Source: a virus
Strand: one strand, 5' to 3'
IMG/VR virus record: IMGVR_UViG_3300042543_000303
Coordinates: 9,961 to 73,960 of that record
DNA length: 64,000 bases
The translations under genes and the position numbers were made by a program. This document shows, one piece after another, positions 545 through 18,211 of the stretch (the first letter of the stretch is position 1; every line of letters begins with the position of its first letter). The notes beneath the pieces are model-generated. The model searched no databases. It saw only the letters and a list, made by a program, of their open reading frames with translations, and was not told the DNA's origin.

Positions 545-795
545 GACAAGTGCTCGAGCCAGATCTTGCGTACGTTGCTCGCAGGAGTGACAACAGTCTC
601 GAAAGGAACGTATGTGTCTTCGCCGGTCTTGCGGCAGGAGCACGACACGGCGATGCCCATGCCGCACGCGTCAGCTTCAATTGCGCGTACGATGCGGATT
701 TGATGAGGCAAAGAGTCGTCCATGATCATCCAGGAATCATCGTCTACTGGGACGCTGTGAACCAGCCTAAGATGCCCTCTAGTTTTCACACTCAT
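541..795 (-). CDS. hypothetical protein (CSC..., W..H, possible metal binding)
   Basis: 84-aa ORF with ATGA overlaps at both ends. Confidence 0.65.
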   Translation of the reverse strand: MSVKTRGHLRLVHSVPVDDDSWMIMDDSLPHQIRIVRAIEADACGMGIAVSCSCRKTGEDTYVPFETVVTPASNVRKIWLEHLS

Positions 796-1163
796 ATTTT
801 ATTCACCGCTAGCCCGACTAGTTCTCCGACAGCGTCTCGACTAGAAGGAATTTTGTACCAGTCACCAAGCCCGTGATCATACTCGTACACCGGTATAGCC
901 GCGCTCATAGCCGCGGCTACTTCTACGCGCGCGCCGACAGATTTCTTCCAGCCGTCAAGAACAAACACTCGCTGGCAACTAAAAATTCCAGATAGACACG
1001 ACTTCATATAGTGCTCCCACGGTAGATCTGTTCTTCCCCCAAAGAGCTCAGTAGGATCAAAGACTTCATAGCCCGCTTCGCGCAGCTTTCGGCATAGAGC
1101 CGCAAATGCGCCGTAGTTGTGCCCATCTATGCCTGTCATAGGGCCGCTGATGTACGCCCGCAT
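792..1163 (-). CDS. DUF4406 / nucleoside 2-deoxyribosyltransferase-like protein
   Basis: YISGPMTG...N..AF...L...GY.V.DP...W..YM...L.GW..S.GA..E pattern. Confidence 0.85.
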   Translation of the reverse strand: MRAYISGPMTGIDGHNYGAFAALCRKLREAGYEVFDPTELFGGRTDLPWEHYMKSCLSGIFSCQRVFVLDGWKKSVGARVEVAAAMSAAIPVYEYDHGLGDWYKIPSSRDAVGELVGLAVNKI

Positions 1164-1285: not shown

Positions 1286-1795
1286 CTAAGCTGCCATGAA
1301 ACCGTCTTGATGCGGCCACAGGTACTCGTATGAGCCCGGGGACGACCCTGGATCCTCCAGATAGTCAAACTGCGAGTACCACTCATAGTTCTTAACCAGC
1401 AGCGCGCGCCGATGCGTTGAGACAAGACGCGAGAAGTAGTCGCCGTCTTGCATCCACGACGGCAAGGTTAGCTCGGAACTGACTCGGCCGAGCTCAAGCG
1501 CGCGATCGAAGGTCGCAAACGTCTTGGGCAGAAGAGTAGACTTGTAGCCTCGGGAACGCCACTCAAAATAGGTAGCTGAAATGTACGAGACAAGCAGCGC
1601 CTCGGAGCCGCGCCACATGCGCGTCACCGGGTGATTGACCCAGCCTTTCTGCTGACGGTCGTTGCCCTCAGGGTCAAGACAAGTAAGAGTAAGAAGTGTC
1701 TGCCATGCCTCAAGTGTCTGCTTGTGAAGTCTTTTATTGTCAAGCTGGCGAGCGGTAACTTCAAAGCTGCCAGTATCTACAAGAAATGTCTGCAT
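1286..1795 (-). CDS. pyrimidine-dimer DNA glycosylase-like protein (DenV / MSMEG_6728 family)
   Basis: MQTFL...LD.KRL.KQ.LE..Q, GW.NHP...MWRG, HR..LL.K, Y.WP motifs. Confidence 0.85.
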   Translation of the reverse strand: MQTFLVDTGSFEVTARQLDNKRLHKQTLEAWQTLLTLTCLDPEGNDRQQKGWVNHPVTRMWRGSEALLVSYISATYFEWRSRGYKSTLLPKTFATFDRALELGRVSSELTLPSWMQDGDYFSRLVSTHRRALLVKNYEWYSQFDYLEDPGSSPGSYEYLWPHQDGFMAA

Positions 1796-1837: not shown

Positions 1838-3247
1838 CTATCGCACTGTAAACACCTTGCCGCCGCCGGACCCCGGCTTCGCCTGCGGCAGTCTACGACT
1901 TGCAAATGATTTGGCAGTTAGCCGACCGCCAACAAATCCAGGCGGAGGCTTGATCAGAAGCGCAGTCATAGCATGAACTAGTGCGTCGATACGGTCAGGC
2001 GACTTACCCTCGCCGGGAATCCATGCGCACATCTGAGACTCTAGATCTGCAAGAATCCCGACATGGTGAACACGGGTCTGCTCATACGCAAGTACGACTG
2101 GCTCAGCGCGAAGCGCCTTGCCGTGCTTGCTGTGTACCTCGAGAACTTTAATACTCGGGTCGATAGCCTGAATTGCATTGCGCACAAGCGCGCCGCCCTG
2201 ATTGACTTCGGCAACAACCGGCGCCTGCCACTTACGCGCCATCGTGGCAACCGCGCTCGCCCAGACTTCAGGCGAGCCGTGCACCGTGGCATCTTCAACT
2301 ACCCAGGCATGACGCTTATACAGATCGCGATCAGCCATTGCGGTGCATACCACGATGCCGCACTCATCGCGCGGGTTCTCAGCGACAGACGGGTCGACGC
2401 CGACAACGCGCAACGGCGCGTTCATCGGCAATGCCATTTGGCGCCCAGCCTCGATCATCTCCAACGTCCAGAGCGCGCCTTCAACGTCGTCGAGCATCTC
2501 GCCGTACAGCTCTTGCTGCGCCAGGCGGGTGCCTGCGTACACTCCGGTGATCGTGTCCAAGTACGCGCCAGATAGGTTACCCGCGTTGTCGAGCGTCGAG
2601 CCGCGAGAGATGTACACCTTGCCTGTGCGCTCGGCTTCGGAAATCAAACCATAGAGAACCGGCACGCGCTTTGGCGTAGTTGTCGCGATGATCTGCGGGT
2701 TAGAGCCAAGACGACAGGCGACGCGAAGGTTGTCCCACGAGGTCATACCAGCCGCGTCAGGCGTTTGCCGCCAGGCGGCAAGCTCGTCAGCCCAGGCGTA
2801 GTGTGCCTGGATACCGCGGAGGCCGTCAGGTTCATCGGCAGTGAACAGCGTCGCAGTGTTCCCGTTCGCCCAAGTAAGGCGTCGCTTGGATGGCTCGTAG
2901 TGCGGGCGCTCGCTTGGCGGACTGACATTGATGATACCGGATTCGCCTTCAACAATGACGTCGCGAACGTCCGCCGCAGTACGGGCAACTAGCGCAAAGC
3001 GCAGTTGACCCTTGTTTGTGTACTTAGCCTTCTCACGTACCCACTCCGCAGCGGAGCGAGTCTTACCTGCGCCTCGGCCGGCAAGGTACAGCCAGATTGC
3101 CCACGACTCGTCCTGCGGCGGTCTTTGCTCTGGTCGAGCCCACATCGACCAGTCCCAGACGAGCGCGTCCATGTCAAGACCTTCAAGCGCCGCTGCCTGC
3201 TCCTCCGGCGGCAACGTCGCAACGATCTCCATAAGGCTCTTGCCCAT
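1838..3247 (-). CDS. terL: terminase large subunit
   Basis: Walker A AGRGAGKT, Walker B WADE, TTTP coupling motif, RNase H-like nuclease VGVDP...SPDRIDA. Confidence 0.95.
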   Translation of the reverse strand: MGKSLMEIVATLPPEEQAAALEGLDMDALVWDWSMWARPEQRPPQDESWAIWLYLAGRGAGKTRSAAEWVREKAKYTNKGQLRFALVARTAADVRDVIVEGESGIINVSPPSERPHYEPSKRRLTWANGNTATLFTADEPDGLRGIQAHYAWADELAAWRQTPDAAGMTSWDNLRVACRLGSNPQIIATTTPKRVPVLYGLISEAERTGKVYISRGSTLDNAGNLSGAYLDTITGVYAGTRLAQQELYGEMLDDVEGALWTLEMIEAGRQMALPMNAPLRVVGVDPSVAENPRDECGIVVCTAMADRDLYKRHAWVVEDATVHGSPEVWASAVATMARKWQAPVVAEVNQGGALVRNAIQAIDPSIKVLEVHSKHGKALRAEPVVLAYEQTRVHHVGILADLESQMCAWIPGEGKSPDRIDALVHAMTALLIKPPPGFVGGRLTAKSFASRRLPQAKPGSGGGKVFTVR

Positions 3248-3839: not shown

Positions 3840-4030
3840 TTTGTCTCTCCCTGTTGTTTGTCAGTGCGTTGTCTCGATGATGATTTGATTATATTACATG
3901 AGACACGAGAAATAAAATTAAGATTTCTAAAGAGGTTCGCCTTCGCAGCACGACGCCTTAAAACCGCAGTGCGGGCACAGCCAACGAGTGGCTACAGGAG
4001 AAAATCTCTCGCCGCAGGAGTCGCACTCAA

Positions 4031-4279
4031 TCATTCTGCTTGAACCTCTTGACCATCAGTTTTTACGTCGCCCCAGGCGATAGCACGGGCGAGCACGACT
4101 AGTCTCTCTGCCTCGGCATAGAGTTCTTCTGCGGCTACGAGAAGATCTGCCTTGTCCTCAATGCTTTTCGGCGCGGCTAGATCCGAAACTACAGCATTTG
4201 CGGTATACGCGCACGCGGCCATGCGACGAAGCGCGCGTGCCTGCGCGTCTTCGTACTGCCAACTTCGCTCGAATCCCAT
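4031..4279 (-). CDS. hypothetical protein (probably leaderless)
   Basis: 82-aa ORF with TACAAT 7 nt before the ATG. Confidence 0.6.
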   Translation of the reverse strand: MGFERSWQYEDAQARALRRMAACAYTANAVVSDLAAPKSIEDKADLLVAAEELYAEAERLVVLARAIAWGDVKTDGQEVQAE

Positions 4280-4310
4280 GACAGTAATTGTAGTACTGGC
4301 TCACGAAGTC

Positions 4311-4580
4311 TTAGTCTTCCCAGGGGCGAAGTTCAACGATCTCACTGAGATATGGAACTGTCTCTGGATCGCGCTCGACGAAAAGTCCAACTATGGTTAA
4401 ATCAGAACACATGCAGCAAATGTAGACATTTCCTGTTTGCAAGTTTTCTGGAATGGAGACACCGGACAGCTTTGAGACAATATTTCCGTCCTCGTCCACG
4501 CCCTCTGGCTCCCAGACAGTGTTCTCATCTAGCCAGCATCGTTCGCAGATCGGCAGTGTTTCCAGGTTAATCTCGCTCAT
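4311..4580 (-). CDS. small Zn-binding protein (CxxC ... CxxC)
   Basis: CERC and CCMC motifs. Confidence 0.6.
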   Translation of the reverse strand: MSEINLETLPICERCWLDENTVWEPEGVDEDGNIVSKLSGVSIPENLQTGNVYICCMCSDLTIVGLFVERDPETVPYLSEIVELRPWED

Positions 4581-4608
4581 AAAGATATCAAATCACATTT
4601 CGACGCGG

Positions 4609-5862
4609 CTATTCTGAGTACCAGCGCTTGCGCACGGCTTCACGGGAAAAGCCTTTGTCAAGGTTAAGAAGCCACTCACGATCACCAATGAGCTCCCCTT
4701 GCGGGCCAGTAGGCGTCCCCTTGATGGCGCCGTTGATAGCCTCGCCTAGCCACGTGGCGGCTTGCACTGGCACGGCCTTACCCCACACGGCCGGCAGCGC
4801 GCTGTACGTGCGAACGGGCTCGATAGCCCAGCCGTCTGGCAGCCCCTGCATCCGTGCTGCTTCACGATGCGTGATTAGACGCGGCTTTGTTGGGTGTACC
4901 ACGTGATCAAGCGCTGAGCCGGTAAGAACGTTCGCCCAGTAGCGATCGCTCCACCGATACGGCGTCGAAAAGCCTAGACGGTAATCCTTTCTTCGAACGC
5001 CCTCTTCAAGATTCTTCCATGTCGGCGGGAACTCGCCCAGGTTATCAACTGCCTTTTTGAGCGCGTCACCTAGACTTTCATTGGCCATCCAGGCGTCGTC
5101 TTCGGCAATAGACGTGAAAACTTCCTCGACCCGTTGAGCGTGGATATTCGTTCGCCCCATGTGCCCGTCAACCTGGCCGGTCTGATTTCTCAGCGAACGC
5201 GTCCATTTTGTGTCGTCCCCGACGTATGGCTGCTCTTCCCACTGATATGGCATATCGGCAAGGTCACCGATGACTTCCATGATCTTAGGCAACTCAGTGG
5301 GGTCGTCGCAGTGCGCACCAAAAGGCAAGCCCTTCTCAACCGCTACCCAGAAATAACGCGGCCGGAACGAAAATCCGCCAAGACGCAGATTGTTGTGCTT
5401 GACGTGATACAGGTCGTATTCTTTGCCGCTTAGCTGTTCGAGCATGTCGCGGTATTGGAGCATTACCTCGCGCCCTTGAGTGTACGCCTGCTGCACACAC
5501 TCAAACGAGACAACTGTCGGCTTCTGCCGCGCGGCGTACTGCATGAATGCACGCGTATGCACATGCGCCGGTGAATCCGGCCCGCGATATGTTGGCCCGC
5601 TAAACGGTGACCACCCTGAGCACGGAGGACACCCGACCACAGCGTCCGTGTCGTCAAAATCCGGCCAGTCATCTGGGTCATCAGAGAACCAGGCGTCCCA
5701 GTACTCATCATCCGAGTTGAAGTGTTTACGGTTCGCTTCCGCGACGCGGTTACCAAAATCAAGAGTGCCGACTCGTCCTTGCATCTTCATTCCAGCATTT
5801 GCCATGCCAAGGCTCATAAAACCAGCAAGGCCGTTGCAGTCAACAAACTTCGGGGCACTCAT
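4609..5862 (-). CDS. DNA cytosine-C5 methyltransferase-fold enzyme with atypical cofactor motifs
   Basis: Likely start MSAPKF (GGAGA RBS). Catalytic GCPPCSGWS, motif VI FECV, motif VIII RPRYF, motif IX REAARMQGLPD, motif X GKAVPV. Motif I is degenerate (DCNGLAGF). Confidence 0.85.
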   Translation of the reverse strand: MSAPKFVDCNGLAGFMSLGMANAGMKMQGRVGTLDFGNRVAEANRKHFNSDDEYWDAWFSDDPDDWPDFDDTDAVVGCPPCSGWSPFSGPTYRGPDSPAHVHTRAFMQYAARQKPTVVSFECVQQAYTQGREVMLQYRDMLEQLSGKEYDLYHVKHNNLRLGGFSFRPRYFWVAVEKGLPFGAHCDDPTELPKIMEVIGDLADMPYQWEEQPYVGDDTKWTRSLRNQTGQVDGHMGRTNIHAQRVEEVFTSIAEDDAWMANESLGDALKKAVDNLGEFPPTWKNLEEGVRRKDYRLGFSTPYRWSDRYWANVLTGSALDHVVHPTKPRLITHREAARMQGLPDGWAIEPVRTYSALPAVWGKAVPVQAATWLGEAINGAIKGTPTGPQGELIGDREWLLNLDKGFSREAVRKRWYSE

Positions 5863-5893
5863 GTGTCTCCTTCGTCGCGCGGTCGCCCTTACC

Positions 5894-6205
5894 TTACGCT
5901 GAGGTTGATCTGTTCTCAGTGATCTGGCCCACCTCATAGCCGCATCCCGCGTATCCGGCAATGTCGATCCAGGTGTCGGCCTGAAACCCGCCATTGACCA
6001 GTCGCGCCATCTTGACAGCGATCATTGCTGCCGCGACGTCCGATTCGGAGAATGGTCGCCCGAAGAGAACGGTCCAGATCCTAGCAATCCGGTTGAAATT
6101 CTCTTCTGGCCCGCCATACTGCTTGTCGCGATTACCGGCAATAAGATCTGCCGCGGTACAAAGAGCTTCCTCGCGGGGGGTCTTCTTGCTTTCTTTGCTT
6201 GCCAT
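5894..6205 (-). CDS. DUF6378-like protein (all-helical, nucleotide hydrolase-associated)
   Basis: R...YG.P..NF.RIA..W, M...K.AR, D.W.DIAGYA. Confidence 0.8.
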   Translation of the reverse strand: MASKESKKTPREEALCTAADLIAGNRDKQYGGPEENFNRIARIWTVLFGRPFSESDVAAAMIAVKMARLVNGGFQADTWIDIAGYAGCGYEVGQITENRSTSA

Positions 6206-6210
6206 GTCTT

Positions 6211-6420
6211 TTACCTCTTCATTCTTAGATGCACGGTTGCCTTGTACGCGCCATCGGCACTCATGTCTGAGTAGCTAGGAGTAATGTCGACTTCGATGTC
6301 GACCCGATTTTCAATTTCATCGATGCTAATCCCAAGAAACTCTGCGACTGCGCGTAACGTCTTACCAGCAATCTCGTCGTACGTATCGCCTTGCACCTCT
6401 AGCTGCGCTGAAGCTCTCAT
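6211..6420 (-). CDS. hypothetical protein
   Basis: 69-aa ORF, translationally coupled within the operon. Confidence 0.6.
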   Translation of the reverse strand: MRASAQLEVQGDTYDEIAGKTLRAVAEFLGISIDEIENRVDIEVDITPSYSDMSADGAYKATVHLRMKR

Positions 6421-6839
6421 TACTTGACTCTCTTCTCGAGCATGTACGGGCTATGATGCGCGCCTTCAATTGCCGGAGCCTTATCGTCCTCCGACTTAAA
6501 AATGACATCTCCGTATCGAATACCAACAATTCGTCCGCGCCGCCCGTTGTGCGCCGTTCCAGCTTCTCCCGTATACGCGTCAGCCTTAACTCGCACCTCA
6601 TCTCCGACAGTGATTTGCCCCGGCTGCGCTTGAACCCAGATCTCATCGGCAACGCTCTGAGGGATAAGCGCGTGCCCGAGTGCTACCTTGCTAAACACTT
6701 CAACTGTCTCGGCCGCTGACTTATCTGTGTGGTTCATTGTGTTCCACAGCTCCATAAGTCTTAGCACCGCCGTGCCAACCGACTGCTTAACTCTTGCCTG
6801 CGCGAATTGCTCGCGCACCCACTCTTCGCTAATCGTCAT
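6420..6839 (-). CDS. hypothetical protein with C-terminal SH3/KOW-like domain
   Basis: VGDEVRVK...GRRGRIVGIRYGDVI; likely start MTISEE coupled to the upstream stop. Confidence 0.65.
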   Translation of the reverse strand: MTISEEWVREQFAQARVKQSVGTAVLRLMELWNTMNHTDKSAAETVEVFSKVALGHALIPQSVADEIWVQAQPGQITVGDEVRVKADAYTGEAGTAHNGRRGRIVGIRYGDVIFKSEDDKAPAIEGAHHSPYMLEKRVK

Positions 6840-7309
6840 GCCACTACCTCGCACTTCACGCAAATTGTTGAATTAGAAACACTAACCCGGACTTCGTCAA
6901 GAGCCCTCGAGCAGACACCACACTTTACTCCAGCCTCGCGAACTTTGTACCCATCGCGCTGGCGCGCTCGATTCTTTTTCATTTTTTCTAGATAGATTTC
7001 GTCAAGCTCTTCGTCGGTGGCTCCAGCGGCGCAGATGATGTTAGCGACAAAATGCAGAACATCGACCGCCTCCTTAACTAGTTCTTCGCGGTCAAGGTAC
7101 GGGTCATCGTGCTGCCACGGTTTCCACGACATTGCTTGCCGCATTTCGGCAAGTTCATCGTCAATCGCCAACATGTTCCAACGCATATACTCGATAGTGG
7201 CGTTGATATCATCAGGCGCGTTGCTGTGGAAGACCGAGTACTTGGCTCCGTAGCACTCTTCCTGAAGCCTGGCAGTCTCCTTGAGCCAGTCTTGAAAAAG
7301 TCTTTTCAT
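6836..7309 (-). CDS. all-alpha NTP pyrophosphatase (dimeric dUTPase / T4 dCTPase / MazG superfamily) with C-terminal Zn ribbon
   Basis: DELAEM...WKPW...EEL.KEAVDVLHF...Y..K...N..RQ..GY, then CGVC...CVKC; likely start MKRLFQ. Confidence 0.85.
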   Translation of the reverse strand: MKRLFQDWLKETARLQEECYGAKYSVFHSNAPDDINATIEYMRWNMLAIDDELAEMRQAMSWKPWQHDDPYLDREELVKEAVDVLHFVANIICAAGATDEELDEIYLEKMKKNRARQRDGYKVREAGVKCGVCSRALDEVRVSVSNSTICVKCEVVA

Positions 7310-7322
7310 TCTTACCCCTACT

Positions 7323-8348
7323 TCACTTTGATGAGAGCAACAGCGTGTCGAGAAGATACTCAAGCGCTTTGCCTTTAGGCGTAATTGAAGATAGATAACT
7401 GTCCTTTTGCTGCGCGGCAAGACTATCTCGCCGCGCTTGATTCATTTCGTCGACGGTAACGGCTAGATCCATCCACGGGTCACCAAGAATAGCAGACTCT
7501 CGCCAATCGGTAACGACTGGCACCCCTACGCCTATAGACTGGGCAACGCGAGGAGTCCACCATGACCCTGTCGGCTTAGACGGCGCAATAAGCGCGCCAA
7601 CACCTTGCGACATCTGCGCAAGAACGTCACGATCTGCCCATCCCTTGTGCTCTTTCATTGGCACGACATTGGTTTTCATTGTTGCTTGAACGCTGGCCGC
7701 CCACCGCGACTTCACATCGTCCACGACCCAGAATCTACTTCCATCGCTAGAAGAGAAAGTTTCTACGTCGTGTACCCGATCAAAAATTAGTGAGTCTAGA
7801 TTCACTGCTCGAAGACTGTTAACCGCGTGGGGCGGGAGTGCGCTTGCAACCTTGCCCTGGTTTCCCCACGGCAGAATCGGGTACAAAGTTTCCGCCCAGG
7901 TGTACGAATTAAGATAGTTAACAGCGCCGTGAATCTTTGCCGCAGTTTCTGGCGTGCGTGCCTGCGCGTAGAACGGCCTAGCCGAATAGAAAGGCTTGAA
8001 CATCGCGGCAGGAGATTCCTGCATCGCGTGAATGCTGTGCGCAATCTTTCCAGGGTCAGGCGCGTCAAGAAAAAGACGCAGCTTAGGGGAATCGCGCATC
8101 TCATTGATAACCCATAGCGCCGCGTACGCATGGTTAGCGGCGACGCTAGTGAGTGGCGATAGCCCAACGAACACGAGATCATAGTCCTCGAGCGCGTCTC
8201 TAGTCATTCCAAAACTCGGTGCGCAGATTTCGCTTGAATGCAGTTTGGTGCTGAGCGCGCTGGATAGAAGTCCGGCAAATGACACCGAGCGCTCTGCGTA
8301 TTTTTTCGACGCCTGAGGCGCAGTCATCCCAGTGATAAGTGTTTTCAT
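7323..8348 (-). CDS. putative GT-B DNA glycosyltransferase, paralogue 2
   Basis: Paralogous to 8593..9774 (MKTLITGMTAPQ, LFLDAP, GSWWTPR); Rossmann-like start; sits in the DNA-modification cluster. Confidence 0.6.
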   Translation of the reverse strand: MKTLITGMTAPQASKKYAERSVSFAGLLSSALSTKLHSSEICAPSFGMTRDALEDYDLVFVGLSPLTSVAANHAYAALWVINEMRDSPKLRLFLDAPDPGKIAHSIHAMQESPAAMFKPFYSARPFYAQARTPETAAKIHGAVNYLNSYTWAETLYPILPWGNQGKVASALPPHAVNSLRAVNLDSLIFDRVHDVETFSSSDGSRFWVVDDVKSRWAASVQATMKTNVVPMKEHKGWADRDVLAQMSQGVGALIAPSKPTGSWWTPRVAQSIGVGVPVVTDWRESAILGDPWMDLAVTVDEMNQARRDSLAAQQKDSYLSSITPKGKALEYLLDTLLLSSK

Positions 8349-8596
8349 TCGCGCCCGCCCGCGGGCTCGTCAACTTCACCAATTTCATCAAGAACAGCAG
8401 GTAGCGCGTCTAGCACGCGTTCGACATCCTCGCACGCGATACTCCCCCAGTTAAGCGCGTCGTCTCCAGCCGGGTAGCTGTTTGGGAACCACGCGGCAAG
8501 AAGAGCTTGCGCTAGTTTTCTTATGAGCTGATCTGTTACATGCTCTGGTAAGTATTCTTCTGGGAAGCTTGTTTCATTGATCTCCGTGTACGTCAT
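8345..8596 (-). CDS. hypothetical acidic protein
   Basis: 83-aa ORF overlapping both glycosyltransferase genes by ATGA junctions. Confidence 0.6.
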   Translation of the reverse strand: MTYTEINETSFPEEYLPEHVTDQLIRKLAQALLAAWFPNSYPAGDDALNWGSIACEDVERVLDALPAVLDEIGEVDEPAGGRE

Positions 8597-9774
8597 ATCT
8601 TGAGTCCTTTGTCTTCTCGTACTGCACGGTGAACGATTTGATCGCAGTGCGCGATAAATGAATCGTAGCTTGGTATGTACTGCCGTAGCGCGTTCTGCTG
8701 CGTGATCGCGAGCTGCGCGAGCTCGGCGTCTGATAGACGCTCAATCTCGGCAATACTCAGCCGGTGGCAGTCACCAAGCGGCGCGCCTTCGTTCTTGTCC
8801 GCGAAGAGAACTGAACCTACACGCGCGGAGTACATGAATCGACTACGCCACCAGCCAGACCCGGCGTGCGGGTACGGCGGAGACAGAATACCCCAGTGCT
8901 CGTTGTAGAACGCGAGGACGTCCTGTTCAGTCTGAAGGCGCTGACCGCCGAGCTTGCGAACCAACTTGCGCGACCCGACAATTTCGACAGGCCACTCAAA
9001 GCGTTTCTTCTCAAGCCACGTGTCGTGCGGCATTAGCGCCCCAAGCACCCACGCGCGTTTCTTGCTCTCTGGCGGCAGCGCTGTGACGCTGTCAAGAATA
9101 GAATAGATCGTCGAGCTCGGGTCAAGCGCCTCGATCGCTGAAAGCTCTTTCGGCATGCGCTTGCGTACCAGTGAACGATCGCCCCACGCGTACATTGGGC
9201 ACACAGGCACCATGCCTGCCCCCCAGCGCGCCCCGAGCAAGTTTCGCGCAGATTCGACAAGCATTGCGTCGTAGTCGCGAACAGACTCGTCAGTCTCCGT
9301 CATATAGTAGCGCTCGATGTAGATCTTGGCGTTAGGGTTAATGGCTAGCGCGCGTTCCTTGGCAGCTACAGCGTCCGCGTGACTAAAGTACGTGGCGCCC
9401 TCCTCGCCGCGATCCTTGCCGACAAGAAGATATTTGTAGATCATCTCGGGCTTGCGTATCAACGCCTTTGCACCATTGAACACGGTGGAGAACTGCCAGT
9501 CATCAAAGAAACCCACGCAGGGTTTCCCGCTAGCAAGAGCGTAAAGCGCGCCCATAGCGCCTTGTCTTCCGTTAAGTGAGTTTAGGGGCGCGAGGTTCAT
9601 CCAGATGACATCGAAAGACGATAGGTCTTCGCCGGGTGTCACCTTGCGCCACTCGACCTCATGCCCGGCGCTACGCAGCGCGTCAACGATTGACGCAGGT
9701 ACGTCAATCTTTGAGATTGTACGCTTGTCGGTGTTGATCTGCAGGGCAGTAAACCCTGACATCAAGATTTTCAT
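8593..9774 (-). CDS. putative GT-B DNA glycosyltransferase (beta-glucosyltransferase-like), paralogue 1
   Basis: MKILMSG...ALRSAGHEVEW, FFDDWQ, PPYPHAGSGWWRSRF; GT-B-like N-terminus. Confidence 0.65.
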   Translation of the reverse strand: MKILMSGFTALQINTDKRTISKIDVPASIVDALRSAGHEVEWRKVTPGEDLSSFDVIWMNLAPLNSLNGRQGAMGALYALASGKPCVGFFDDWQFSTVFNGAKALIRKPEMIYKYLLVGKDRGEEGATYFSHADAVAAKERALAINPNAKIYIERYYMTETDESVRDYDAMLVESARNLLGARWGAGMVPVCPMYAWGDRSLVRKRMPKELSAIEALDPSSTIYSILDSVTALPPESKKRAWVLGALMPHDTWLEKKRFEWPVEIVGSRKLVRKLGGQRLQTEQDVLAFYNEHWGILSPPYPHAGSGWWRSRFMYSARVGSVLFADKNEGAPLGDCHRLSIAEIERLSDAELAQLAITQQNALRQYIPSYDSFIAHCDQIVHRAVREDKGLKI

Positions 9775-9799
9775 TCCGTCTCCTCAGTAGCCCCTGCGA

Positions 9800-9834
9800 C
9801 GTGCCCGCCCGGTGTAGTGGGCCGGGCGGACACG
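9800..9834 (-). terminator. GC-rich hairpin downstream of the SSB gene
   Basis: Minus strand CGTGTCCGCCCGG-cccactaca-CCGGGCGGGCACG. Confidence 0.55.
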
Positions 9835-9852
9835 CCGTACGCTTCGATCGTA

Positions 9853-10425
9853 CTAGAACGGAGAAGCGGGAGGTGCGCTAGCGCTGACAGCTTCTGGTGC
9901 AGGTGCAGGTGCAGGTGCAGGTGCAGGTGCAGGTGCAGGTGCAGGTGCAGGTGCAGGTGCAGGTGCAGGTGCAGGCGCCGCGGCCGGAGCGGAAGCTGCG
10001 AGGGGTGCTCCAGCCGCCGCCTGAGTGGCGTAGTAGGTCTTGATCTCGTTGCGCTTCTGACCCTGCCACGTGCGACTGCCAACCTGCGCACGGAACGAGC
10101 GCCCAACAAGCGCCTGCTCGATCTGAGCATTCGACGGGTTGGTTGCGAAGTAGTCGCGACCGAGACCAAGAGCGTTCATCTTACGGAAGAAGATGCCAAG
10201 CGCATTTGCGTTGTCAGGTGAGACAACCAGGTTGTCCCAGACAAGACGCTTATTGTGCGCGCCACCCTGAACCTGAGTCTTCAGCGCGAACATTGTCTTG
10301 CCTGACTGCGACACTTTTGCGGTTGCCTCGACCACGGTGAGTTCATAGTCGCCGTCCGGCAGCGGCTCATAGCTGCCGACGTCTCCGGCCTCGTTGACGA
10401 GGTCTGACCAGTTGAGACTGCTCAA
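9853..10425 (-). CDS. DUF669-family single-stranded DNA-binding-like protein with Ala-Pro tail
   Basis: YEPLPDGDY, SQSGK.M, RTWQGQKRNEIK, C-terminal PF; lies next to the Sak4-like ATPase. Confidence 0.8.
   Translation of the reverse strand: MSSLNWSDLVNEAGDVGSYEPLPDGDYELTVVEATAKVSQSGKTMFALKTQVQGGAHNKRLVWDNLVVSPDNANALGIFFRKMNALGLGRDYFATNPSNAQIEQALVGRSFRAQVGSRTWQGQKRNEIKTYYATQAAAGAPLAASAPAAAPAPAPAPAPAPAPAPAPAPAPAPAPAPEAVSASAPPASPF
9896..9973. repeat. perfect (GGTGCA)13 microsatellite encoding (Ala-Pro)n
   Basis: Counted directly in the sequence. Confidence 0.95.
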
Positions 10426-10454
10426 TGTATTCTCCTTACTCTGCCTGACGACTG

Positions 10455-11231
10455 TCAGGACGCCTTCTTCTTGGACTCAGCCGGGGCTGCTTCTTGCTTT
10501 GGCCCGAAGACCATGTCGAGCATACGCTCGATTGATAGGTTTTCCTGCTCGACGACTCCGCCGAGCCTACCCTGTACGCGTTCGCCAGCTTCGTACTTCG
10601 GCGTACGCTCGACGTACATGCGACGCACTCGATACGGCCCTTGCGTTGGGTCAGGATTTGGAAATTCCTCGATAGTAATTGCGCCGAGGATATCGTAGAA
10701 ATACGGAGCCTGAATAGCCAGCTGCCCCTGTAGATACGGCTTGTACCGATCATCCTGCCCCGACCGTGCCATGGCGGTAAGAACCACGGCCTCGAGCGGA
10801 GCGGTAGGGTGCATCGTTAGGTCACGCAGATCACGCAAGAGCGCGCCCATGTGACGAAGTAACTCACCCCACTGCTGCTGACTCATCTGCTGCTTCCCCG
10901 CGATATTCTCCAGGCACTTAACCTGGAGCTCAGACACGGAGTCAATGATGAGCGACTTAAACTGATGCTTACCGAGCTGAAGCCACTGGAACGTTTTCAG
11001 CACGGTGTCGTAGTCACGGATTTGCACGACGCAGGTATCCCACGTCCCATCCGCGACAGGCGGCTCCTCACGGAGCGGGTCCCAGTACTTGACAACGATG
11101 GGAAGGAAGCGGTGACCGCCTTCGACATCGAGCATGAGCCGGGGGTAGGGTGCGGTCACGGCGAAGGTTGACTTACCAACCTTTGACTCACCGTAGACCA
11201 TAATGGTTAGAGAGCGCTGTACTTCCGACAT
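10455..11231 (-). CDS. AAA_24 / Sak4-like ATPase (recombinase)
   Basis: YGESKVGKST, LDVEGG, IIDSVSE. Confidence 0.85.
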   Translation of the reverse strand: MSEVQRSLTIMVYGESKVGKSTFAVTAPYPRLMLDVEGGHRFLPIVVKYWDPLREEPPVADGTWDTCVVQIRDYDTVLKTFQWLQLGKHQFKSLIIDSVSELQVKCLENIAGKQQMSQQQWGELLRHMGALLRDLRDLTMHPTAPLEAVVLTAMARSGQDDRYKPYLQGQLAIQAPYFYDILGAITIEEFPNPDPTQGPYRVRRMYVERTPKYEAGERVQGRLGGVVEQENLSIERMLDMVFGPKQEAAPAESKKKAS

Positions 11232-11234
11232 GCG

Positions 11235-14828: not shown

Positions 14829-16663
14829 CGGTACTTATCTCCCCATGTCTCAAGCGGACCGTCAATGCCGGCGGTAAGCGGGACGTCCCAGCCGTCTGAA
14901 GTTGTCATACACTCTTGCACAACCTTCATGATCTCGTGCGCCTCACGGCGCGGCGCCTGCAGCACAATCTCGTCGTGCACCGGCACAATGAGATGCTCGG
15001 TGAGATCTGCCTGATCGAGCTTGACGAGGTTCTGCTTAAACACCTCGGCGGCGCCACCCTGAATTAGATAGTTGACAAGTGTGTACACGCGATTCTCATC
15101 GCAGGGGATTCGGCGGCCTGTCCACGTGTAGACGTAGCCCTGCCCTTCCGAGCGTAATCTCCGCATTCCAGTGTCTTCAATCTTGCGCTGGAAGTCGGCC
15201 ATGCCCGGGTAGCGAATGTCAAATGCGTCTGATACTGAACGCATCTGCGTCTCAGGCACGCCGGCAGTTAGCGCTTGCTTCGCGACGCCCGCTCCGTATA
15301 GGCGACCATAGACGGTGCCCTTGATCAGATTACGGCGCTTGTCGCTCTTTTGCATGTCTGGGTCTTGGTAGATTTCGCGACCAATCTCCGTGAACGGGTC
15401 CGAACCCGTCGCGTCCGCGCGGTTAAACAGCGTGATCAGATTGGGGTCGCCAGACAGCGACGCAAACATGCGAAACTCAACCTGGTCGAGGTCGGACGTG
15501 ATAATCACGTGATCCTCGTCCTTTGGAATGAAGGCGGTACGCACCGTGTCATCGCCCTTCGGCAGCGTCTGCAGCGCAGGGTCGGTAATCGACATCCGCG
15601 ACGTGCGCGCCCCGAGAGTCTTCACCGACGGATGAACGATTCCGTCGATAGACTTGGTCAGGAAGTTCTGAAAGTACGTGCCAGCAAGCTTGTCCGCCTT
15701 GCGCTGCTTAAGCACAATCTCGGCGAGCTGCTTGACCTCGTCATTGCCGTAGATCGTCAACATTTTGAGCTGATCCTTGGTGCACGACTTCTGCCCGGTT
15801 GGCGTCATCTCTGTGATCTCCGCGCCGAGGCTCTCAAACAAGCGCACGAGTTGAATGTTACTTGTGATCGACGTCCCGCCGTACGTTTGCTTGGCCCATG
15901 TCTTAACCGACTCGGTGTACGCGGTCAACTCGTCATACTTGCGCTGCGAATAGTCCAAGTCAATTCGTGCGCCGTTAAGTTCCATGCGCGTGACGATGCG
16001 CCGTGCCGCCATTTCGAGTTCGTACGGGCGATTGTAAGGACCGCCTGGGCCACACTTCTCCCAGAACATGTGCCACAGGCGCATTGTCAACACGGTATCC
16101 AGCGCGCCGTACGCCCAGTATGGCTGGAAGTTGATCGGTACCGTTCCCCACGTCCAGCCGTTCTTGGCCAGCTCTGTGTCCAGCGTGTCTTGCAGCGCGA
16201 CGGCGCGCCCGTCAACGTGCAACGCTGCAAGTCGCTTGAGCGCGCCAGAGCCTAGCGGGTCGATGATATGAGCCATGATCATCGTGTCGTGCGCGCGATG
16301 CCATGGAATTTCCCAGCGCGAACGAATGTCAAACCAACGCGCCTCGAACGCGATGTTGTGGCAGACGATAGGACCGTCGAAGCGGCTCATGGCTTCGTAG
16401 AAGACACCAGACCATTCTTCCCAGGGAATCGACCACCCTTGCTCGCCGTCGCCAACCTGCACAAGTCGCAGACGCCCGTGCCATGGCGATAGCGCATGAT
16501 CACGTGGGTTGCCTGGGAGCTCGCCGGTCTCAGTGTCTACAGCGATCGCGTTCAGTGGGCGTCGTTCACTTAGCCAGCGCAGAAACTCACCTGCTTTGTC
16601 GACAGAGTCGACAAGGTGAAGTTGAACGTCGCCCAGATTACCAGTATCAGACAAGAACGTCAC
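14825..16663 (-). CDS. polA: DNA polymerase family A (3'-5' exonuclease plus polymerase)
   Basis: AVDTETG, HNIAFE, DLDQVEFR, K...YG..YG, PVHDEIV. Confidence 0.95.
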   Translation of the reverse strand: MTFLSDTGNLGDVQLHLVDSVDKAGEFLRWLSERRPLNAIAVDTETGELPGNPRDHALSPWHGRLRLVQVGDGEQGWSIPWEEWSGVFYEAMSRFDGPIVCHNIAFEARWFDIRSRWEIPWHRAHDTMIMAHIIDPLGSGALKRLAALHVDGRAVALQDTLDTELAKNGWTWGTVPINFQPYWAYGALDTVLTMRLWHMFWEKCGPGGPYNRPYELEMAARRIVTRMELNGARIDLDYSQRKYDELTAYTESVKTWAKQTYGGTSITSNIQLVRLFESLGAEITEMTPTGQKSCTKDQLKMLTIYGNDEVKQLAEIVLKQRKADKLAGTYFQNFLTKSIDGIVHPSVKTLGARTSRMSITDPALQTLPKGDDTVRTAFIPKDEDHVIITSDLDQVEFRMFASLSGDPNLITLFNRADATGSDPFTEIGREIYQDPDMQKSDKRRNLIKGTVYGRLYGAGVAKQALTAGVPETQMRSVSDAFDIRYPGMADFQRKIEDTGMRRLRSEGQGYVYTWTGRRIPCDENRVYTLVNYLIQGGAAEVFKQNLVKLDQADLTEHLIVPVHDEIVLQAPRREAHEIMKVVQECMTTSDGWDVPLTAGIDGPLETWGDKYR

Positions 16664-17141
16664 TTTCGTCTAGTGTCGAATGAAAAACGTCAACCTTCAA
16701 TCCGCAAGCGCGCAGATACTTGATGACGAGCTCGGGCTTACGATGCGCGTCTGCCTCGCGCAGGCGCATAACAACTCGAACAAGCCCCGAGTTGGACACT
16801 GCCTTTGCGCACGACATACACATGCTTTCGGTTACGTAAATCGTCCCGCCCTCTACCTGAGTGCGATCTACGTAGAGTAGCGCGTTGAGTTCACTGTGAA
16901 TGCTGGGGCACTGATCGTATGTGTTATCTAGCGGAGTTATCCCTTGAGCTCTTGGGCAGAACTCGATGCAGTCACCTTCACTTGGGTAGGTTGCCGCTGG
17001 GCCGTTGTAACCGGTCGAGCAGATACGATTATTGGCGGACACAACAACAGCGCCGATACCAGCGCGTGTGCAGCGACTCCGCAGCGCGATCGTGTCAGCC
17101 ACAGACATCCACGCCTCGTCCCACGTCAGCCTGCCATGCAT
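16647..17141 (-). CDS. dCMP deaminase (variant motifs)
   Basis: A..IA.RS.C.R..GAVVV...TGYNG, HSELNAL, SMCMSCAK; likely start MHGRLTW. Confidence 0.88.
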   Translation of the reverse strand: MHGRLTWDEAWMSVADTIALRSRCTRAGIGAVVVSANNRICSTGYNGPAATYPSEGDCIEFCPRAQGITPLDNTYDQCPSIHSELNALLYVDRTQVEGGTIYVTESMCMSCAKAVSNSGLVRVVMRLREADAHRKPELVIKYLRACGLKVDVFHSTLDESDVLV

Positions 17142-17142
17142 A

Positions 17143-17331
17143 CTAGTCGTCCTCCCGAGCGTCCTCAATCGCCGATCCGGCGCCAAGAACGATGCTACGG
17201 GCGATCAGATCAAGCGCCTCGCGACGCGTAAAGCCGGCGCGCTTAAGTTCCTGGTAGAGTTCGTGCATTTGAATGGCACCGGCAGCGAGCGGGCTCATGT
17301 CATTTGTTGGTTCACTATTCTCATTCGCCAT
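17143..17331 (-). CDS. small hypothetical protein
   Basis: HELYQEL.RAGFTR.EAL pattern, common in actinophages. Confidence 0.65.
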   Translation of the reverse strand: MANENSEPTNDMSPLAAGAIQMHELYQELKRAGFTRREALDLIARSIVLGAGSAIEDAREDD

Positions 17332-18211
17332 TGCTAGTCTCCTCAGTAATCTTCTTGGCCTTTTCTTCATTGTTGCGAATCGCGGTTACCATCGAGTTAG
17401 TAAACCACTTTTCGTGATCCTGCAAACGGTCATAAAGCGCCTGATCAAAGACAGCCTTTAGACAACCAACGGCACTAGCAGACACTTCCTGCCAGATTCG
17501 ACCAGTGATGTATGGAACCGGTACGCCATCTGTTGCGTACTCAAGACTTTCGGCTGCCGCATAGTGCTGCTCATAGATGTGCAACGAACCAACGTGGTGC
17601 GCGTACGTCCCGGGCTCAATGCCTAGCACTGACGCAATCGCAATCTGCACGCGCGTAAACTGAAACCAGTCATATGCGGCGCCGAGCCAAATATCATTCG
17701 AGCGCATGTACACACTCATGTTGAGCTTGCCGTTACGAATGCGGAACTGATGCAGCACCGTGCACGGATAGTCGCGCTTACTTGGCTGCAGATCGAGCTT
17801 TGGGTCCCAGATGGTTACGACCGCCTGCCGCGTATCCGGGTCTTTCTTAAGCCGTTCAATGACGTGCTCGTATTGTCCCCGAGTGCGCGGGCCGTACGCT
17901 CCATGAAACAGCCCATTGTTCTCAGCGTAGTTCGCGAACTGCGGGCCAACCGCAATCACAAGCTCAGGAGCGCTCACCCCCGCAAGAAGCTGCAGCGACT
18001 CAACTGACGCAATACCCGGCACCGCACCGCGCTTAACACCAAGTGGCAGTGTGTTATACACGTCATCGATGACGATCACCGCGTCCTCAATCTCGCGCGT
18101 CTTCATTCCACGCGGCGCGACTTCGTCACCGTTCTCAAGCACCCAACGAACAACGTCGACGTACCCGTTGACTCCGTCGGCAACGTGCTTAATTTTCATT
18201 GCAGGATCCAC
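17321..18211 (-). CDS. thymidylate-synthase homologue, Asp-type (probable dCMP hydroxymethylase/methylase)
   Basis: AYGPR, DTRQAV, catalytic PCT, RSNDIWLGAAYD (Asp where ThyA has Asn177), SLHIY. Confidence 0.88.
   Translation of the reverse strand: MDPAMKIKHVADGVNGYVDVVRWVLENGDEVAPRGMKTREIEDAVIVIDDVYNTLPLGVKRGAVPGIASVESLQLLAGVSAPELVIAVGPQFANYAENNGLFHGAYGPRTRGQYEHVIERLKKDPDTRQAVVTIWDPKLDLQPSKRDYPCTVLHQFRIRNGKLNMSVYMRSNDIWLGAAYDWFQFTRVQIAIASVLGIEPGTYAHHVGSLHIYEQHYAAAESLEYATDGVPVPYITGRIWQEVSASAVGCLKAVFDQALYDRLQDHEKWFTNSMVTAIRNNEEKAKKITEETSNGE

What the first reader, a model, noticed from the sequence alone, without database searches (positions are those of the whole stretch)
4609..5862. C5-methyltransferase-fold enzyme with a natural motif X Asn->Lys change and a degenerate SAM motif: probably transfers something other than methyl
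Seen: the base-activating machinery is intact (PPC catalytic Cys, motif VI Glu, RxR of motif VIII). The cofactor-side motifs are all altered: motif I is DCNGLAGF instead of DLFxGxGG, motif VI is ECV instead of ENV, and motif X is GKAV instead of GNAV/GNSV (Lys codon 4777-4779). Established (from memory, verify by alignment): the engineered motif X Asn->Lys changes M.MpeI N374K and E. coli Dcm N436K make these enzymes use carboxy-SAM and write 5-carboxymethylcytosine. C5-MTases without SAM can also add or remove aldehydes and thiols at 5hmC. Inference: this may be a natural C5-carboxymethyl- or other anionic-group transferase, or an enzyme that acts on pre-modified hmC. An ordinary C5 methylase would be redundant next to a dCMP-C5-modifying TS homologue. 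No CmoA-like Cx-SAM synthase is visible in this window.
Basis: partly seen in the sequence, partly recalled or inferred. Interest (0 to 1): 0.9.

Follow-up and report, generated by a model that had tools for sequence, protein, structure and literature searches.

The report
Lysine-pocket cytosine-C5 enzyme of hmC phages
A lake phage carries a look-alike of a DNA cytosine methylase that keeps every residue needed to attack cytosine, but its methyl-donor pocket is rebuilt around a conserved lysine; its virus-only family occurs only in phages that make hydroxymethyl-type cytosine nucleotides, so it probably does untested, non-methyl chemistry on DNA.

Summary
Window 4609-5862 (-) encodes a 417-aa protein with the C5-cytosine-methyltransferase fold (Pfam PF00145; AlphaFold pLDDT 96).

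- Kept: the catalytic PPC Cys81, Glu121 and Arg167/Arg169.
- Changed: motif I is DCNGLAGF, motif VI is ECV and motif X is GKAV.
- Lys362 (codon 4777-4779) aligns with Arg350 of SpCmoX, the natural carboxy-SAM enzyme, and with Asn436 of E. coli Dcm.

These changes are not decay. They are invariant in 120 close homologues. A cationic residue in motif X and E-S/C-V in motif VI hold across a virus-only family down to about 30% identity.

The carboxy-SAM reading is disfavoured. No CmoA was found in 31 phage genomes or records of the family, although the positive control rang. CmoA is rare in sampled Actinomycetota. Three of the four adenosine contacts of SpCmoX are lost.

All 31 of these phages encode one thymidylate-synthase homologue of the cytosine (Asp) type. 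The gene sits in a block of glycosyltransferase-like genes and a MazG-like gene. Some relatives are fused to, or lie next to, a 5-hmdU-DNA-kinase-type domain.

My best reading is a DNA cytosine-C5 enzyme of the hydroxymethylcytosine hypermodification pathway that does not do plain methylation. The chemistry is untested. Earlier notes of this scan reached the same reading for homologues in other genomes.

The parts
4609..5862 (-). Gene for the 417-aa enzyme with the C5-cytosine-methyltransferase fold (P0001), here called C5L
   Evidence: PF00145 at E 4.7e-18. AlphaFold model pLDDT 96, pTM 0.94. Foldseek top matches are DNMT1, ZMET2, 3G7U and M.HaeIII. Start at 5862 supported by homologue lengths.
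5818..5841 (-). Motif I, DCNGLAGF (residues 8-15), in place of D-L-F-x-G-x-G-G. Asn10 sits at the adenine-stacking Phe and Leu12 at the first Gly.
   Evidence: Alignment with SpCmoX F25/G27/G30 and Dcm F93/G95/G98. Invariant in 115 of 115 close homologues that cover it.
5767..5769 (-). Gly32 at the position of the ribose-binding motif II Glu (SpCmoX E47, Dcm E115, HaeIII E29)
   Evidence: Gly in 121 of 121 close homologues. Glu in 82 of the roughly 124 distant representatives that cover the position.
5608..5634 (-). Motif IV, GCPPCSGWS, with the catalytic Cys81 (codon 5620-5622)
   Evidence: Aligned with SpCmoX C98 and Dcm C177. Invariant.
5497..5502 (-). Motif VI, Glu121-Cys122 (E-C-V instead of E-N-V)
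   Evidence: Glu invariant. Position 122 is C or S in close homologues and Ser in 131 distant representatives.
5356..5364 (-). Motif VIII, Arg167-x-Arg169
   Evidence: Invariant.
4777..4779 (-). Lys362 codon (AAG), in motif X, G-K-A-V
   Evidence: Aligns with SpCmoX R350 and Dcm N436 and with the HaeIII GNAV Asn. Lys in 121 of 121 close homologues and 139 of 147 distant ones.
5894..6205 (-). DUF6378 gene just upstream
   Evidence: PF19905 at E 1.4e-26. Found beside C5L in 82 of 89 loci that hold it, mostly the close clade.
6836..7420 (-). MazG-like / dimeric-dUTPase-family NTP pyrophosphatase. Inferred to be a dCTP-clearing enzyme.
   Evidence: PF08761 at E 2.5e-10. A homologue lies within 10 kb of C5L in 77 of 89 loci that hold C5L (mostly the close clade) and 68 of 81 distant loci.
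7323..8348 (-). 341-aa protein, a distant paralogue of the 393-aa protein below. Conserved module member.
   Evidence: 33% identical to the DSL-LC01 329-aa protein and 27% to Sixama gp125. 22% identical to window 8593-9774 at E 2e-6. No Pfam, NCBIfam or PHROG hit.
8593..9774 (-). 393-aa homologue of a phage protein annotated as glycosyltransferase
   Evidence: 29% identical at E 6e-44 to the DSL-LC01 'glycosyltransferase'. No Pfam or PDB sequence hit, so the glycosyltransferase assignment rests on that annotation only.
17321..18211 (-). Thymidylate-synthase homologue of the cytosine type (predicted dCMP C5-hydroxymethylase or methylase)
   Evidence: PF00303 at E 1.2e-25. Best solved relative is MilA CMP 5-hydroxymethylase at E 1e-25. 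Asp at the ThyA-N177 position and Asp kept at the D169 position. D169N marks 5-hydroxy-dCMP synthases (PMC13326640).
18196..19221 (-). Kinase-like protein next to the TS homologue
   Evidence: phrog_761 'thymidylate kinase' at E 2e-10. Weak TIGR00041 P-loop match.
16647..17186 (-). dCMP/cytidine deaminase-family protein
   Evidence: PF00383 at E 3e-16.

Best explanation
The gene encodes a catalytically competent DNA cytosine-C5-activating enzyme. It belongs to a virus-only clade whose donor pocket has been rebuilt. It works within the phage's 5-hydroxymethyl-type cytosine modification pathway and does something other than ordinary SAM-dependent methylation.

Shown:
- The fold is that of a C5-MTase.
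- The residues for base flipping and covalent catalysis are invariant: Cys81 adds to C6, Glu121 protonates N3, and Arg167/Arg169 hold O2.
- Three of the four adenosine contacts seen in SpCmoX with Cx-SAM are replaced (Phe to Asn10, Glu to Gly32, and the Phe after that Glu). The first motif I glycine is Leu12.
- Lys362 (Lys or Arg across the family) sits at the position that touches the group carried on the donor's sulfonium, next to C5 of the flipped base.

Inferred: the cationic side chain binds an anionic or oxygen-bearing group at C5. This could be the 5-CH2-O-R substituent of hydroxymethylcytosine (free, phosphorylated or glycosylated) already in the phage DNA. In that case C6-thiolate addition would allow exchange of that substituent, as C5-MTases do in vitro without SAM (from memory, not re-read). 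Alternatively it could be an anionic donor other than CmoA-made Cx-SAM. The product is unknown.
For: 1. Catalytic motifs are invariant while the cofactor motifs are changed in a conserved way. The family-specific residues are near-invariant, which points to selection for a defined ligand.

2. A cationic residue at this position goes with use of Cx-SAM. Natural SpCmoX (Arg350) accepted only Cx-SAM, not SAM, and engineered M.MpeI N374K gained Cx-SAM use. In a more divergent branch the position alternates Arg and Lys while ESV is kept, so the charge is the conserved feature.

3. The protein scores 29 bits against NCBIfam dcm TIGR00675, cut-off 100.65.

4. The family is virus-only. One locus, on a 17.5-kb MAG contig, was found in one-genome-per-species contigs of 185,579 species. 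By contrast 350 and 88 loci were found in viral contigs. ESM Atlas clusters are 96-100% viral.

5. All 31 genomes or records encoding a family member have exactly one TS homologue. Every one has Asp at the ThyA-N177 position and Asp at D169. Conversely, at least five phages at least 91% complete have such a TS but no PF00145 gene. So the dependence runs one way.

6. The gene lies in a conserved block of glycosyltransferase(-like) genes, a MazG-like gene, then C5L. This holds in six divergent actinophages and in distant relatives.

7. One relative is fused to a 5-hmdU-DNA-kinase helical domain (E 5e-40). In another (L146) the gene follows a class-I MTase, a GT-like gene, UDP-glucose dehydrogenase, an epimerase, an HMUDK_hel protein and a MazG-like gene.
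Against: No biochemical or nucleoside data exist for any member, so the chemistry is inferred only.

The co-occurrence with the TS homologue, MazG and glycosyltransferases is partly shared ancestry. The whole replication module (SNF2 helicase, PD-(D/E)XK, AAA_24, DUF669) is syntenic across these phages, so the 31 of 31 are not independent events.

I could not inspect model coordinates, so the pocket reading rests on sequence alignment to solved enzymes. D62 (SpCmoX D69, the adenine N6 contact) is kept in this clade, and the motif II Glu is kept in 82 of about 124 distant members that cover the position. Some adenosyl-cofactor binding therefore cannot be excluded.

No HMUDK-type kinase is present in this record or in the five cultured or complete relatives.
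Confidence: 0.45

Rival explanations
1. It is an ordinary SAM-dependent DNA 5-methylcytosine methyltransferase with an unusually divergent cofactor site. It might, for example, methylate residual unmodified cytosines that escape replacement.
For: PF00145 membership and a complete catalytic set. D62 at the adenine-binding Asp position is kept in this clade, and two of the three motif I glycines are kept in the wider family. Phages often carry orphan methylases.
Against: The motif I Phe, the first motif I Gly and the motif II Glu are all replaced, and the replacements are fixed. The protein is far below the NCBIfam dcm cut-off. The only characterised natural enzyme with a cationic residue at this position did not accept SAM. 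The family is absent from cellular genomes, where real C5 methylases abound.
Confidence: 0.2
2. It is a Lys-type CmoX: a DNA cytosine C5-carboxymethyltransferase that uses carboxy-SAM.
For: Lys362 aligns exactly with SpCmoX Arg350, which binds the Cx-SAM carboxymethyl group. It also aligns with the position whose Asn-to-Lys change turns M.MpeI, and a homologous residue in M.CviPI, into carboxymethyltransferases. The published CmoX survey required Arg at this position, so Lys enzymes were excluded by design.
Against: CmoA (TIGR00740) is absent at E<=0.01 from 31 of 31 family-bearing phage genomes or records, while SpCmoA rings at E 2.5e-34. In the published survey 4257 CmoA sequences were identified on the contigs of 5615 candidate CmoX sequences. 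No SpCmoA- or SpCmoY-like gene lies in any of about 170 loci. None of 101 sampled genomes of the phylum of a Coriobacteriia MAG reaches the CmoA cut-off; there are three weaker hits, the strongest in the unpublished genome G027. SpCmoX keeps F25, E47 and ENV, which are lost here. By profile it is not closer to 8YF3 than to HaeIII or HhaI.
Confidence: 0.12
3. It targets unmodified host DNA rather than phage DNA. It uses cofactor-free C6 attack to damage or mark cytosine, for example by deamination or covalent trapping, while the phage's own C5-substituted DNA is spared.
For: The phages are predicted to replace C, so ordinary C is mainly in host DNA. SAM-free C5-MTases are known to promote cytosine deamination (general knowledge, not checked here).
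Against: This does not explain the conserved cationic residue, nor the fusions to an hmU-kinase-type domain and to class-I MTases. The gene lies in the modification block, not among early host-takeover genes.
Confidence: 0.08
4. It is a non-catalytic DNA-binding or base-flipping protein (a pseudo-enzyme).
For: The cofactor site is degenerate by canonical standards.
Against: Cys81, Glu121, Arg167 and Arg169 are invariant over more than 250 sequences down to about 30% identity. Five of six strain-level differences in lake metagenome contigs are synonymous.
Confidence: 0.05

Closest known systems
SpCmoX, DNA cytosine C5-carboxymethyltransferase of Synechococcus phage S-B43 (PDB 8YF3; Yang et al., Nat Commun 2025, PMC12783734)
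   Same: C5-MTase fold, PPC Cys, Glu and RxR. A cationic residue (Arg350 there, Lys362 here) replaces the motif X Asn. Both are phage-encoded and lie within a DNA-hypermodification context.
   Different: SpCmoX keeps the motif I Phe25 and GxG, motif II Glu47 and motif VI ENV, and is encoded next to CmoA and the ligase CmoY. This protein has Asn10, Leu12, Gly32 and ECV. It has no CmoA or CmoY in the record, and travels with a cytosine-type TS homologue, a MazG-like gene and glycosyltransferase-like genes. Identity is about 21%.
Engineered carboxymethyltransferases M.MpeI N374K and the homologous M.CviPI variant (Kohli laboratory; PMC13288465)
   Same: A Lys at the motif X Asn position.
   Different: These are single-residue changes in otherwise canonical SAM pockets. 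Here the whole pocket is altered and the Cx-SAM source is missing.
Canonical DNA (cytosine-5) methyltransferases (M.HaeIII, M.HhaI, E. coli Dcm, prophage CP-933R 3G7U, DNMT1 catalytic domain; PF00145)
   Same: Fold and catalytic motifs IV, VI (Glu), VIII and IX. A large target-recognition domain.
   Different: Motifs I, II, VI (Asn) and X differ in a conserved way. Below the NCBIfam dcm cut-off. Virus-only distribution.
T4-type hydroxymethylcytosine pathway (dCMP hydroxymethylase gp42, dNMP kinase gp1, dCTPase gp56, DNA glucosyltransferases)
   Same: The window holds an Asp-type TS homologue, a kinase-like gene, a dCMP deaminase, a MazG-like pyrophosphatase and two glycosyltransferase-like genes.
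   Different: To my knowledge T4 has no C5-MTase-fold enzyme in this pathway. That extra member is the finding.

Membership tests
DNA (cytosine-5) methyltransferase (PF00145 / TIGR00675) | Overall sequence and fold homology | tested here: met
   PF00145 66 bits against a cut-off of 22. Foldseek probability 1.00 to DNMT1, 3G7U and HaeIII.
DNA (cytosine-5) methyltransferase (PF00145 / TIGR00675) | Catalytic motif IV Pro-Cys, motif VI Glu, motif VIII Arg-x-Arg | tested here: met
   Cys81, Glu121 and Arg167/169 are aligned and invariant.
DNA (cytosine-5) methyltransferase (PF00145 / TIGR00675) | AdoMet-binding motif I F-x-G-x-G and motif II Glu | tested here: not met
   Asn10 for Phe, Leu12 for the first Gly, Phe15 for the last Gly, Gly32 for Glu.
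DNA (cytosine-5) methyltransferase (PF00145 / TIGR00675) | Motif VI E-N-V and motif X G-N | tested here: not met
   E-C-V and G-K.
DNA (cytosine-5) methyltransferase (PF00145 / TIGR00675) | Curated NCBIfam superfamily cut-off | tested here: not met
   29.4 bits against 100.65.
DNA (cytosine-5) methyltransferase (PF00145 / TIGR00675) | SAM-dependent formation of 5mC | not testable with these tools
   Needs an enzyme assay or nucleoside LC-MS.
CmoX-type Cx-SAM DNA carboxymethyltransferase | Cationic residue at the HhaI Asn304 / SpCmoX Arg350 position | tested here: met
   Lys362 aligns with R350. Note that the published definition demanded Arg.
CmoX-type Cx-SAM DNA carboxymethyltransferase | 'SPPC' motif used in the published survey | tested here: not met
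   Own motif is C-P-P-C. The wider family has N-P-P-C.
CmoX-type Cx-SAM DNA carboxymethyltransferase | Adenosine contacts Phe25, Glu47, Phe48, Asp69 | tested here: not met
   Only Asp (D62) is kept. N10 and G32 replace Phe25 and Glu47; the residue after G32 is Thr, not Phe.
CmoX-type Cx-SAM DNA carboxymethyltransferase | A source of Cx-SAM (phage or host CmoA) | tested here: not met
   0 of 31 phage genomes or records, with a positive control. 0 of 101 sampled genomes of the phylum of a Coriobacteriia MAG over the cut-off. The host of this phage is not known, so host supply is not strictly excluded.
CmoX-type Cx-SAM DNA carboxymethyltransferase | Formation of 5cxmC | not testable with these tools
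   Needs LC-MS in cmoA+ and cmoA- hosts.

The most novel reading that the evidence does not exclude
A natural, SAM-independent enzyme with the C5-methyltransferase fold that derivatises 5-hydroxymethylcytosine (or its phosphorylated or glycosylated form) already in phage DNA. Cys81 adds to C6, Lys362 assists departure or binding of the oxygen-linked group at the 5-methylene, and a nucleophile is then captured. This would be a new enzymatic route to hypermodified cytosine. It would be the cytosine counterpart of the kinase-plus-pyrophosphorylase route for thymidine hypermodification, and a natural example of the cofactor-free exchange chemistry so far shown only in vitro with canonical methylases.
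Probability: 0.25. Interest if true: 0.85.

Novelty: new variant of a known kind. Interest (0 to 1): 0.7.

Why it matters
C5-cytosine methyltransferases are among the best understood DNA enzymes. Only one natural departure from methyl transfer (CmoX) has been shown, in 2025.

This family is large: 529 clusters at 50% identity with E<=0.001, and hundreds of viral contigs. It is restricted to viruses. The published CmoX survey excluded it by design, because that survey required Arg. The family keeps the catalytic machinery but has a differently rebuilt donor pocket.

If it writes or rewrites a non-methyl group on (hydroxymethyl)cytosine, three things follow. It would add a new step to phage DNA hypermodification. 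It would explain part of the restriction resistance of abundant freshwater and soil actinophages. It could also supply a new tool enzyme for labelling 5hmC or C.

Cultured members exist (Gordonia phages Sixama, Phendrix, GodonK and GMA2; Micrococcus phage Kurnik), so the question can be tested directly.

Tried and rejected
- A single-sequence AlphaFold run gave a useless model (pLDDT 36). It was replaced by the alignment-based model.
Contexts were taken from the search for related loci and phage records instead.
- Megablast of the region against GenBank phages found no match.
- P0222 (the kinase-domain fusion) has no relative in viral contigs, so its context is unknown.
- Tet_JBP (PF12851) was not found in 31 genomes, but the control rang nowhere, so this negative is weak.
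- HMUDK_hel is absent from this record and from five related complete phages.
- An HMM of the class-I MTase domain that is fused to C5L elsewhere finds nothing in the window or in the loci around C5L in cultured relatives.
- The 393-aa glycosyltransferase-like protein has no PDB sequence relative.
- RNA-library contigs from lake metatranscriptomes cover short pieces of the MazG-like, GT-like and AAA_24 genes but none of the C5L gene. They may be DNA carry-over, so nothing can be said about expression.
- All sequencing runs that hold this DNA are kept as contigs, so no read-level signal of base modification could be sought.
- 'Dcm N436K' was not found in the papers I could read.
Full report
**The object.** On the minus strand an ORF runs 4609-5994. 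Homologues of 411-425 aa begin at the ATG at 5862, which gives 417 aa (P0001). This start leaves a 32-base gap after the upstream DUF6378 gene (5894-6205). Pfam assigns PF00145 at E 4.7e-18, and PHROGs assigns 'DNA methyltransferase'. An AlphaFold model built on a 125-sequence alignment is confident (pLDDT 96, pTM 0.94). Foldseek places it with DNMT1, ZMET2, the prophage methylase 3G7U and M.HaeIII. Against NCBIfam's dcm superfamily model it reaches only 29 bits, with a cut-off of 100.65.

The Lys codon is at 4777-4779. HMMER aligns ECV with ENV and GKAV with GNAV of M.HaeIII.

I fetched SpCmoX from Synechococcus phage S-B43 (MN018232) and E. coli Dcm and aligned them with family members. The alignment reproduces the residue numbers published for the SpCmoX-Cx-SAM crystal structure (Phe25, Glu47, Asp69, Cys98, Arg350). 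It maps own residues as follows:

| SpCmoX residue | Role in SpCmoX | Own residue |
|---|---|---|
| Phe25 | stacks on adenine | Asn10 |
| Glu47 | binds ribose hydroxyls | Gly32 |
| Asp69 | H-bonds adenine | Asp62 (kept) |
| Cys98 | nucleophile | Cys81 |
| Arg350 | binds the carboxymethyl group | Lys362 |

Lys362 also falls on Dcm Asn436, and Leu12 on the first motif I glycine. SpCmoX and Dcm both have ENV where this protein has ECV.

**The changes are conserved, not decayed.** In 120 homologues of 57-88% identity every one of these residues is invariant or nearly so. An exhaustive HMMER search of 1.84 billion cluster representatives found 529 relatives at E<=0.001. Among the best 150 (28-67% identity):
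- Motif X is Lys in 139 of 147 and Arg in 3.
- Motif VI is E-S-V in 131 and E-C-V in 7.
- Motif I is D-[CV]-Q-G-F-A-G-G.
- Motif IV is G-N-P-P-C-S-G-F-S.
- Cys, Glu and RxR are essentially invariant.

The adenine-binding Asp is not conserved across the wider family. The motif II Glu is present in 82 of the roughly 124 representatives that cover the position, but is Gly in this clade. A more divergent branch has S-[RK]-G in motif X together with ESV, so the positive charge is the conserved feature. In lake metagenome contigs five of six differences within the gene are synonymous.

**What is known.** Yang et al. (PMC12783734) showed that SpCmoX makes 5-carboxymethylcytosine from Cx-SAM supplied by a phage CmoA. 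Arg350 contacts the carboxymethyl group, the wild type accepts Cx-SAM but not SAM, and a ligase (CmoY) then adds glycine. Their survey required 'SPPC' and Arg350, and identified 4257 CmoA sequences on the contigs of 5615 candidate CmoX sequences. M.MpeI N374K, and a homologous M.CviPI variant, are engineered carboxymethyltransferases.

**Why Cx-SAM is nevertheless unlikely here.**
- TIGR00740 (CmoA) finds nothing at E<=0.01 in this record, in five cultured or complete relatives, or in 25 further viral genomes that encode family members, 19 of them at least 90% complete. The same search finds SpCmoA at E 2.5e-34.
- tblastn with SpCmoA and SpCmoY hits no locus other than S-B43 among about 170 loci.
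- Relatives infect Gordonia and Micrococcus, and a close relative (DSL-LC01) is recorded with an Actinomycetia host. In 101 genomes sampled from the phylum of a Coriobacteriia MAG, none reaches the CmoA cut-off. Three have weaker hits, the strongest in an unpublished genome, G027; that single datum rests on it.
- By profile, 8YF3 is no closer to the family than HaeIII or HhaI.

**Context.** The window is part of an IMG/VR record of 73,960 bases, estimated 44% complete. Upstream of the gene, all co-oriented, lie:
- DUF6378 (5894-6205);
- a weak Tad3-like ORF (6420-6863);
- a MazG-like/dUTPase_2 pyrophosphatase (6836-7420);
- a 341-aa protein (7323-8348) and a 393-aa protein (8593-9774), which are distant paralogues. 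The 393-aa one is homologous to a protein annotated as glycosyltransferase in phage DSL-LC01;
- DUF669, AAA_24, a PD-(D/E)XK nuclease and an SNF2 helicase.

About 12 kb away lie PolA, a dCMP-deaminase-family protein, a TS homologue and a kinase-like protein. The TS homologue's best solved relative is MilA CMP 5-hydroxymethylase. It has Asp at the ThyA-Asn177 specificity position and keeps Asp169. The D169N change marks 5-hydroxy-dCMP synthases (PMC13326640). It is therefore predicted to be a dCMP hydroxymethylase or methylase.

**Family-wide associations.**
- The block 'glycosyltransferase(-like), MazG-like, C5L' recurs in DSL-LC01, in Gordonia phages Sixama, Phendrix and GMA2, and in Micrococcus phage Kurnik.
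- A MazG-like gene lies within 10 kb of C5L in 77 of 89 loci that hold C5L (mostly the close clade) and in 68 of 81 distant loci.
- Every one of 31 genomes or records with a family member has exactly one TS homologue, all of the Asp/Asp type.
- The reverse does not hold. At least five phages at least 91% complete have such a TS, plus a class-I methyltransferase and in some a kinase-like gene, but no PF00145 gene.
- The family is nearly absent from cellular genomes: one MAG contig in 185,579 species representatives.
- Fusions link it to hypermodification. One protein carries a 5-hmdU-DNA-kinase helical domain (E 5e-40). At least 13 carry a Methyltransf_23 domain.
- In locus L146 the gene closes a row of class-I MTase, GT-like gene, UDP-glucose dehydrogenase, epimerase/dehydratase, HMUDK_hel protein and MazG-like gene.

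**A caveat on these counts.** The whole replication module is syntenic in these phages, so much of the co-occurrence is inherited together rather than independently acquired.

**Interpretation.** The enzyme can almost certainly flip a cytosine-type base and add Cys81 to C6. Its donor side no longer looks like an AdoMet site, and it carries a fixed cation beside C5. It lives only in viruses predicted to replace C by a 5-hydroxymethyl-type base, and it sits among the genes that decorate that base.

I therefore favour (0.45) a non-methyl reaction within the hmC pathway. Either it acts on the 5-CH2-O-R group of hmC in DNA, or it uses an anionic donor that is not CmoA-made Cx-SAM. C5-MTases are known to perform exchange at 5hmC without SAM in vitro (Klimasauskas laboratory; from memory, not re-read here).

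The rivals are a divergent but ordinary SAM methylase (0.2), a Lys-type CmoX (0.12), a host-DNA-directed activity (0.08) and a pseudo-enzyme (0.05). None can be settled without chemistry.

**Relation to earlier notes of this scan.** Homologues in other genomes were read in the same way. Those notes are not independent evidence. I reached the same points from my own calls before reading them.

**Ecology.** Near-identical DNA is present in contigs of at least 15 lake or freshwater metagenome runs, mostly filed under separate study codes. So this is a common freshwater phage.

Noticed in passing
L098:10001-10771 and L097-L114; fused forms P0165, P0170, P0194, P0272-P0281: A class-I SAM methyltransferase domain (Methyltransf_23) occurs as a separate gene next to Asp-type TS homologues, with a kinase-like gene beside it in three loci, in phages that lack any C5-MTase-like gene. 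It is fused to the C-terminus of C5L in at least 13 proteins. Its role in cytosine modification is unknown.
   Followed up: partly
L146:2980-11221: A hypermodification-like gene row in a 79-kb phage: 457-aa unknown, class-I MTase, GT-like gene, UDP-glucose dehydrogenase, NAD epimerase/dehydratase, HMUDK_hel protein, MazG-like (PRA-PH) gene, C5L. This suggests a uronic-acid- or pentose-derived sugar on the modified base.
   Followed up: partly
L225-L227 (G131, G134, G135) and L224: A more divergent branch of the family has INSYAGSL / AHPPCAAFS / IESV / YLS[RK]GVCP motifs, with Arg or Lys at the motif X position. The fused form in L224 has Arg.
   Followed up: partly
window 6420-6863 (-): A 147-aa ORF with a weak, sub-threshold match to the Thoeris inhibitor Tad3 (PF25185, E 4e-4, 20.5 bits against a cut-off of 27). 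It is conserved beside the MazG-like gene in 77 of 89 loci that hold C5L, mostly the close clade.
   Followed up: no
window 792-1163 (-) and 1286-1795 (-): DUF4406 (nucleoside 2-deoxyribosyltransferase-like) and a pyrimidine-dimer DNA glycosylase (T4 endoV family) lie downstream of the large terminase gene (1838-3247).
   Followed up: no
window 42942-47651 (-) and 48711-57365 (-): Very long ORFs of 1569 and 2884 aa, not examined. The DSL-LC01 relative has giant genes annotated as collagen-like or similar in the corresponding area.
   Followed up: no
window 5264: One freshwater metagenome contig (run X3) carries T>G, which gives D200A in C5L at a position that is otherwise more than 90% conserved. 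It is a single contig at depth about 6.5, so it may be an error.
   Followed up: no
window 4000-13000: Near-identical DNA is held by contigs of at least 15 lake or freshwater metagenome runs, mostly filed under separate study codes, so the phage is widespread.
   Followed up: partly
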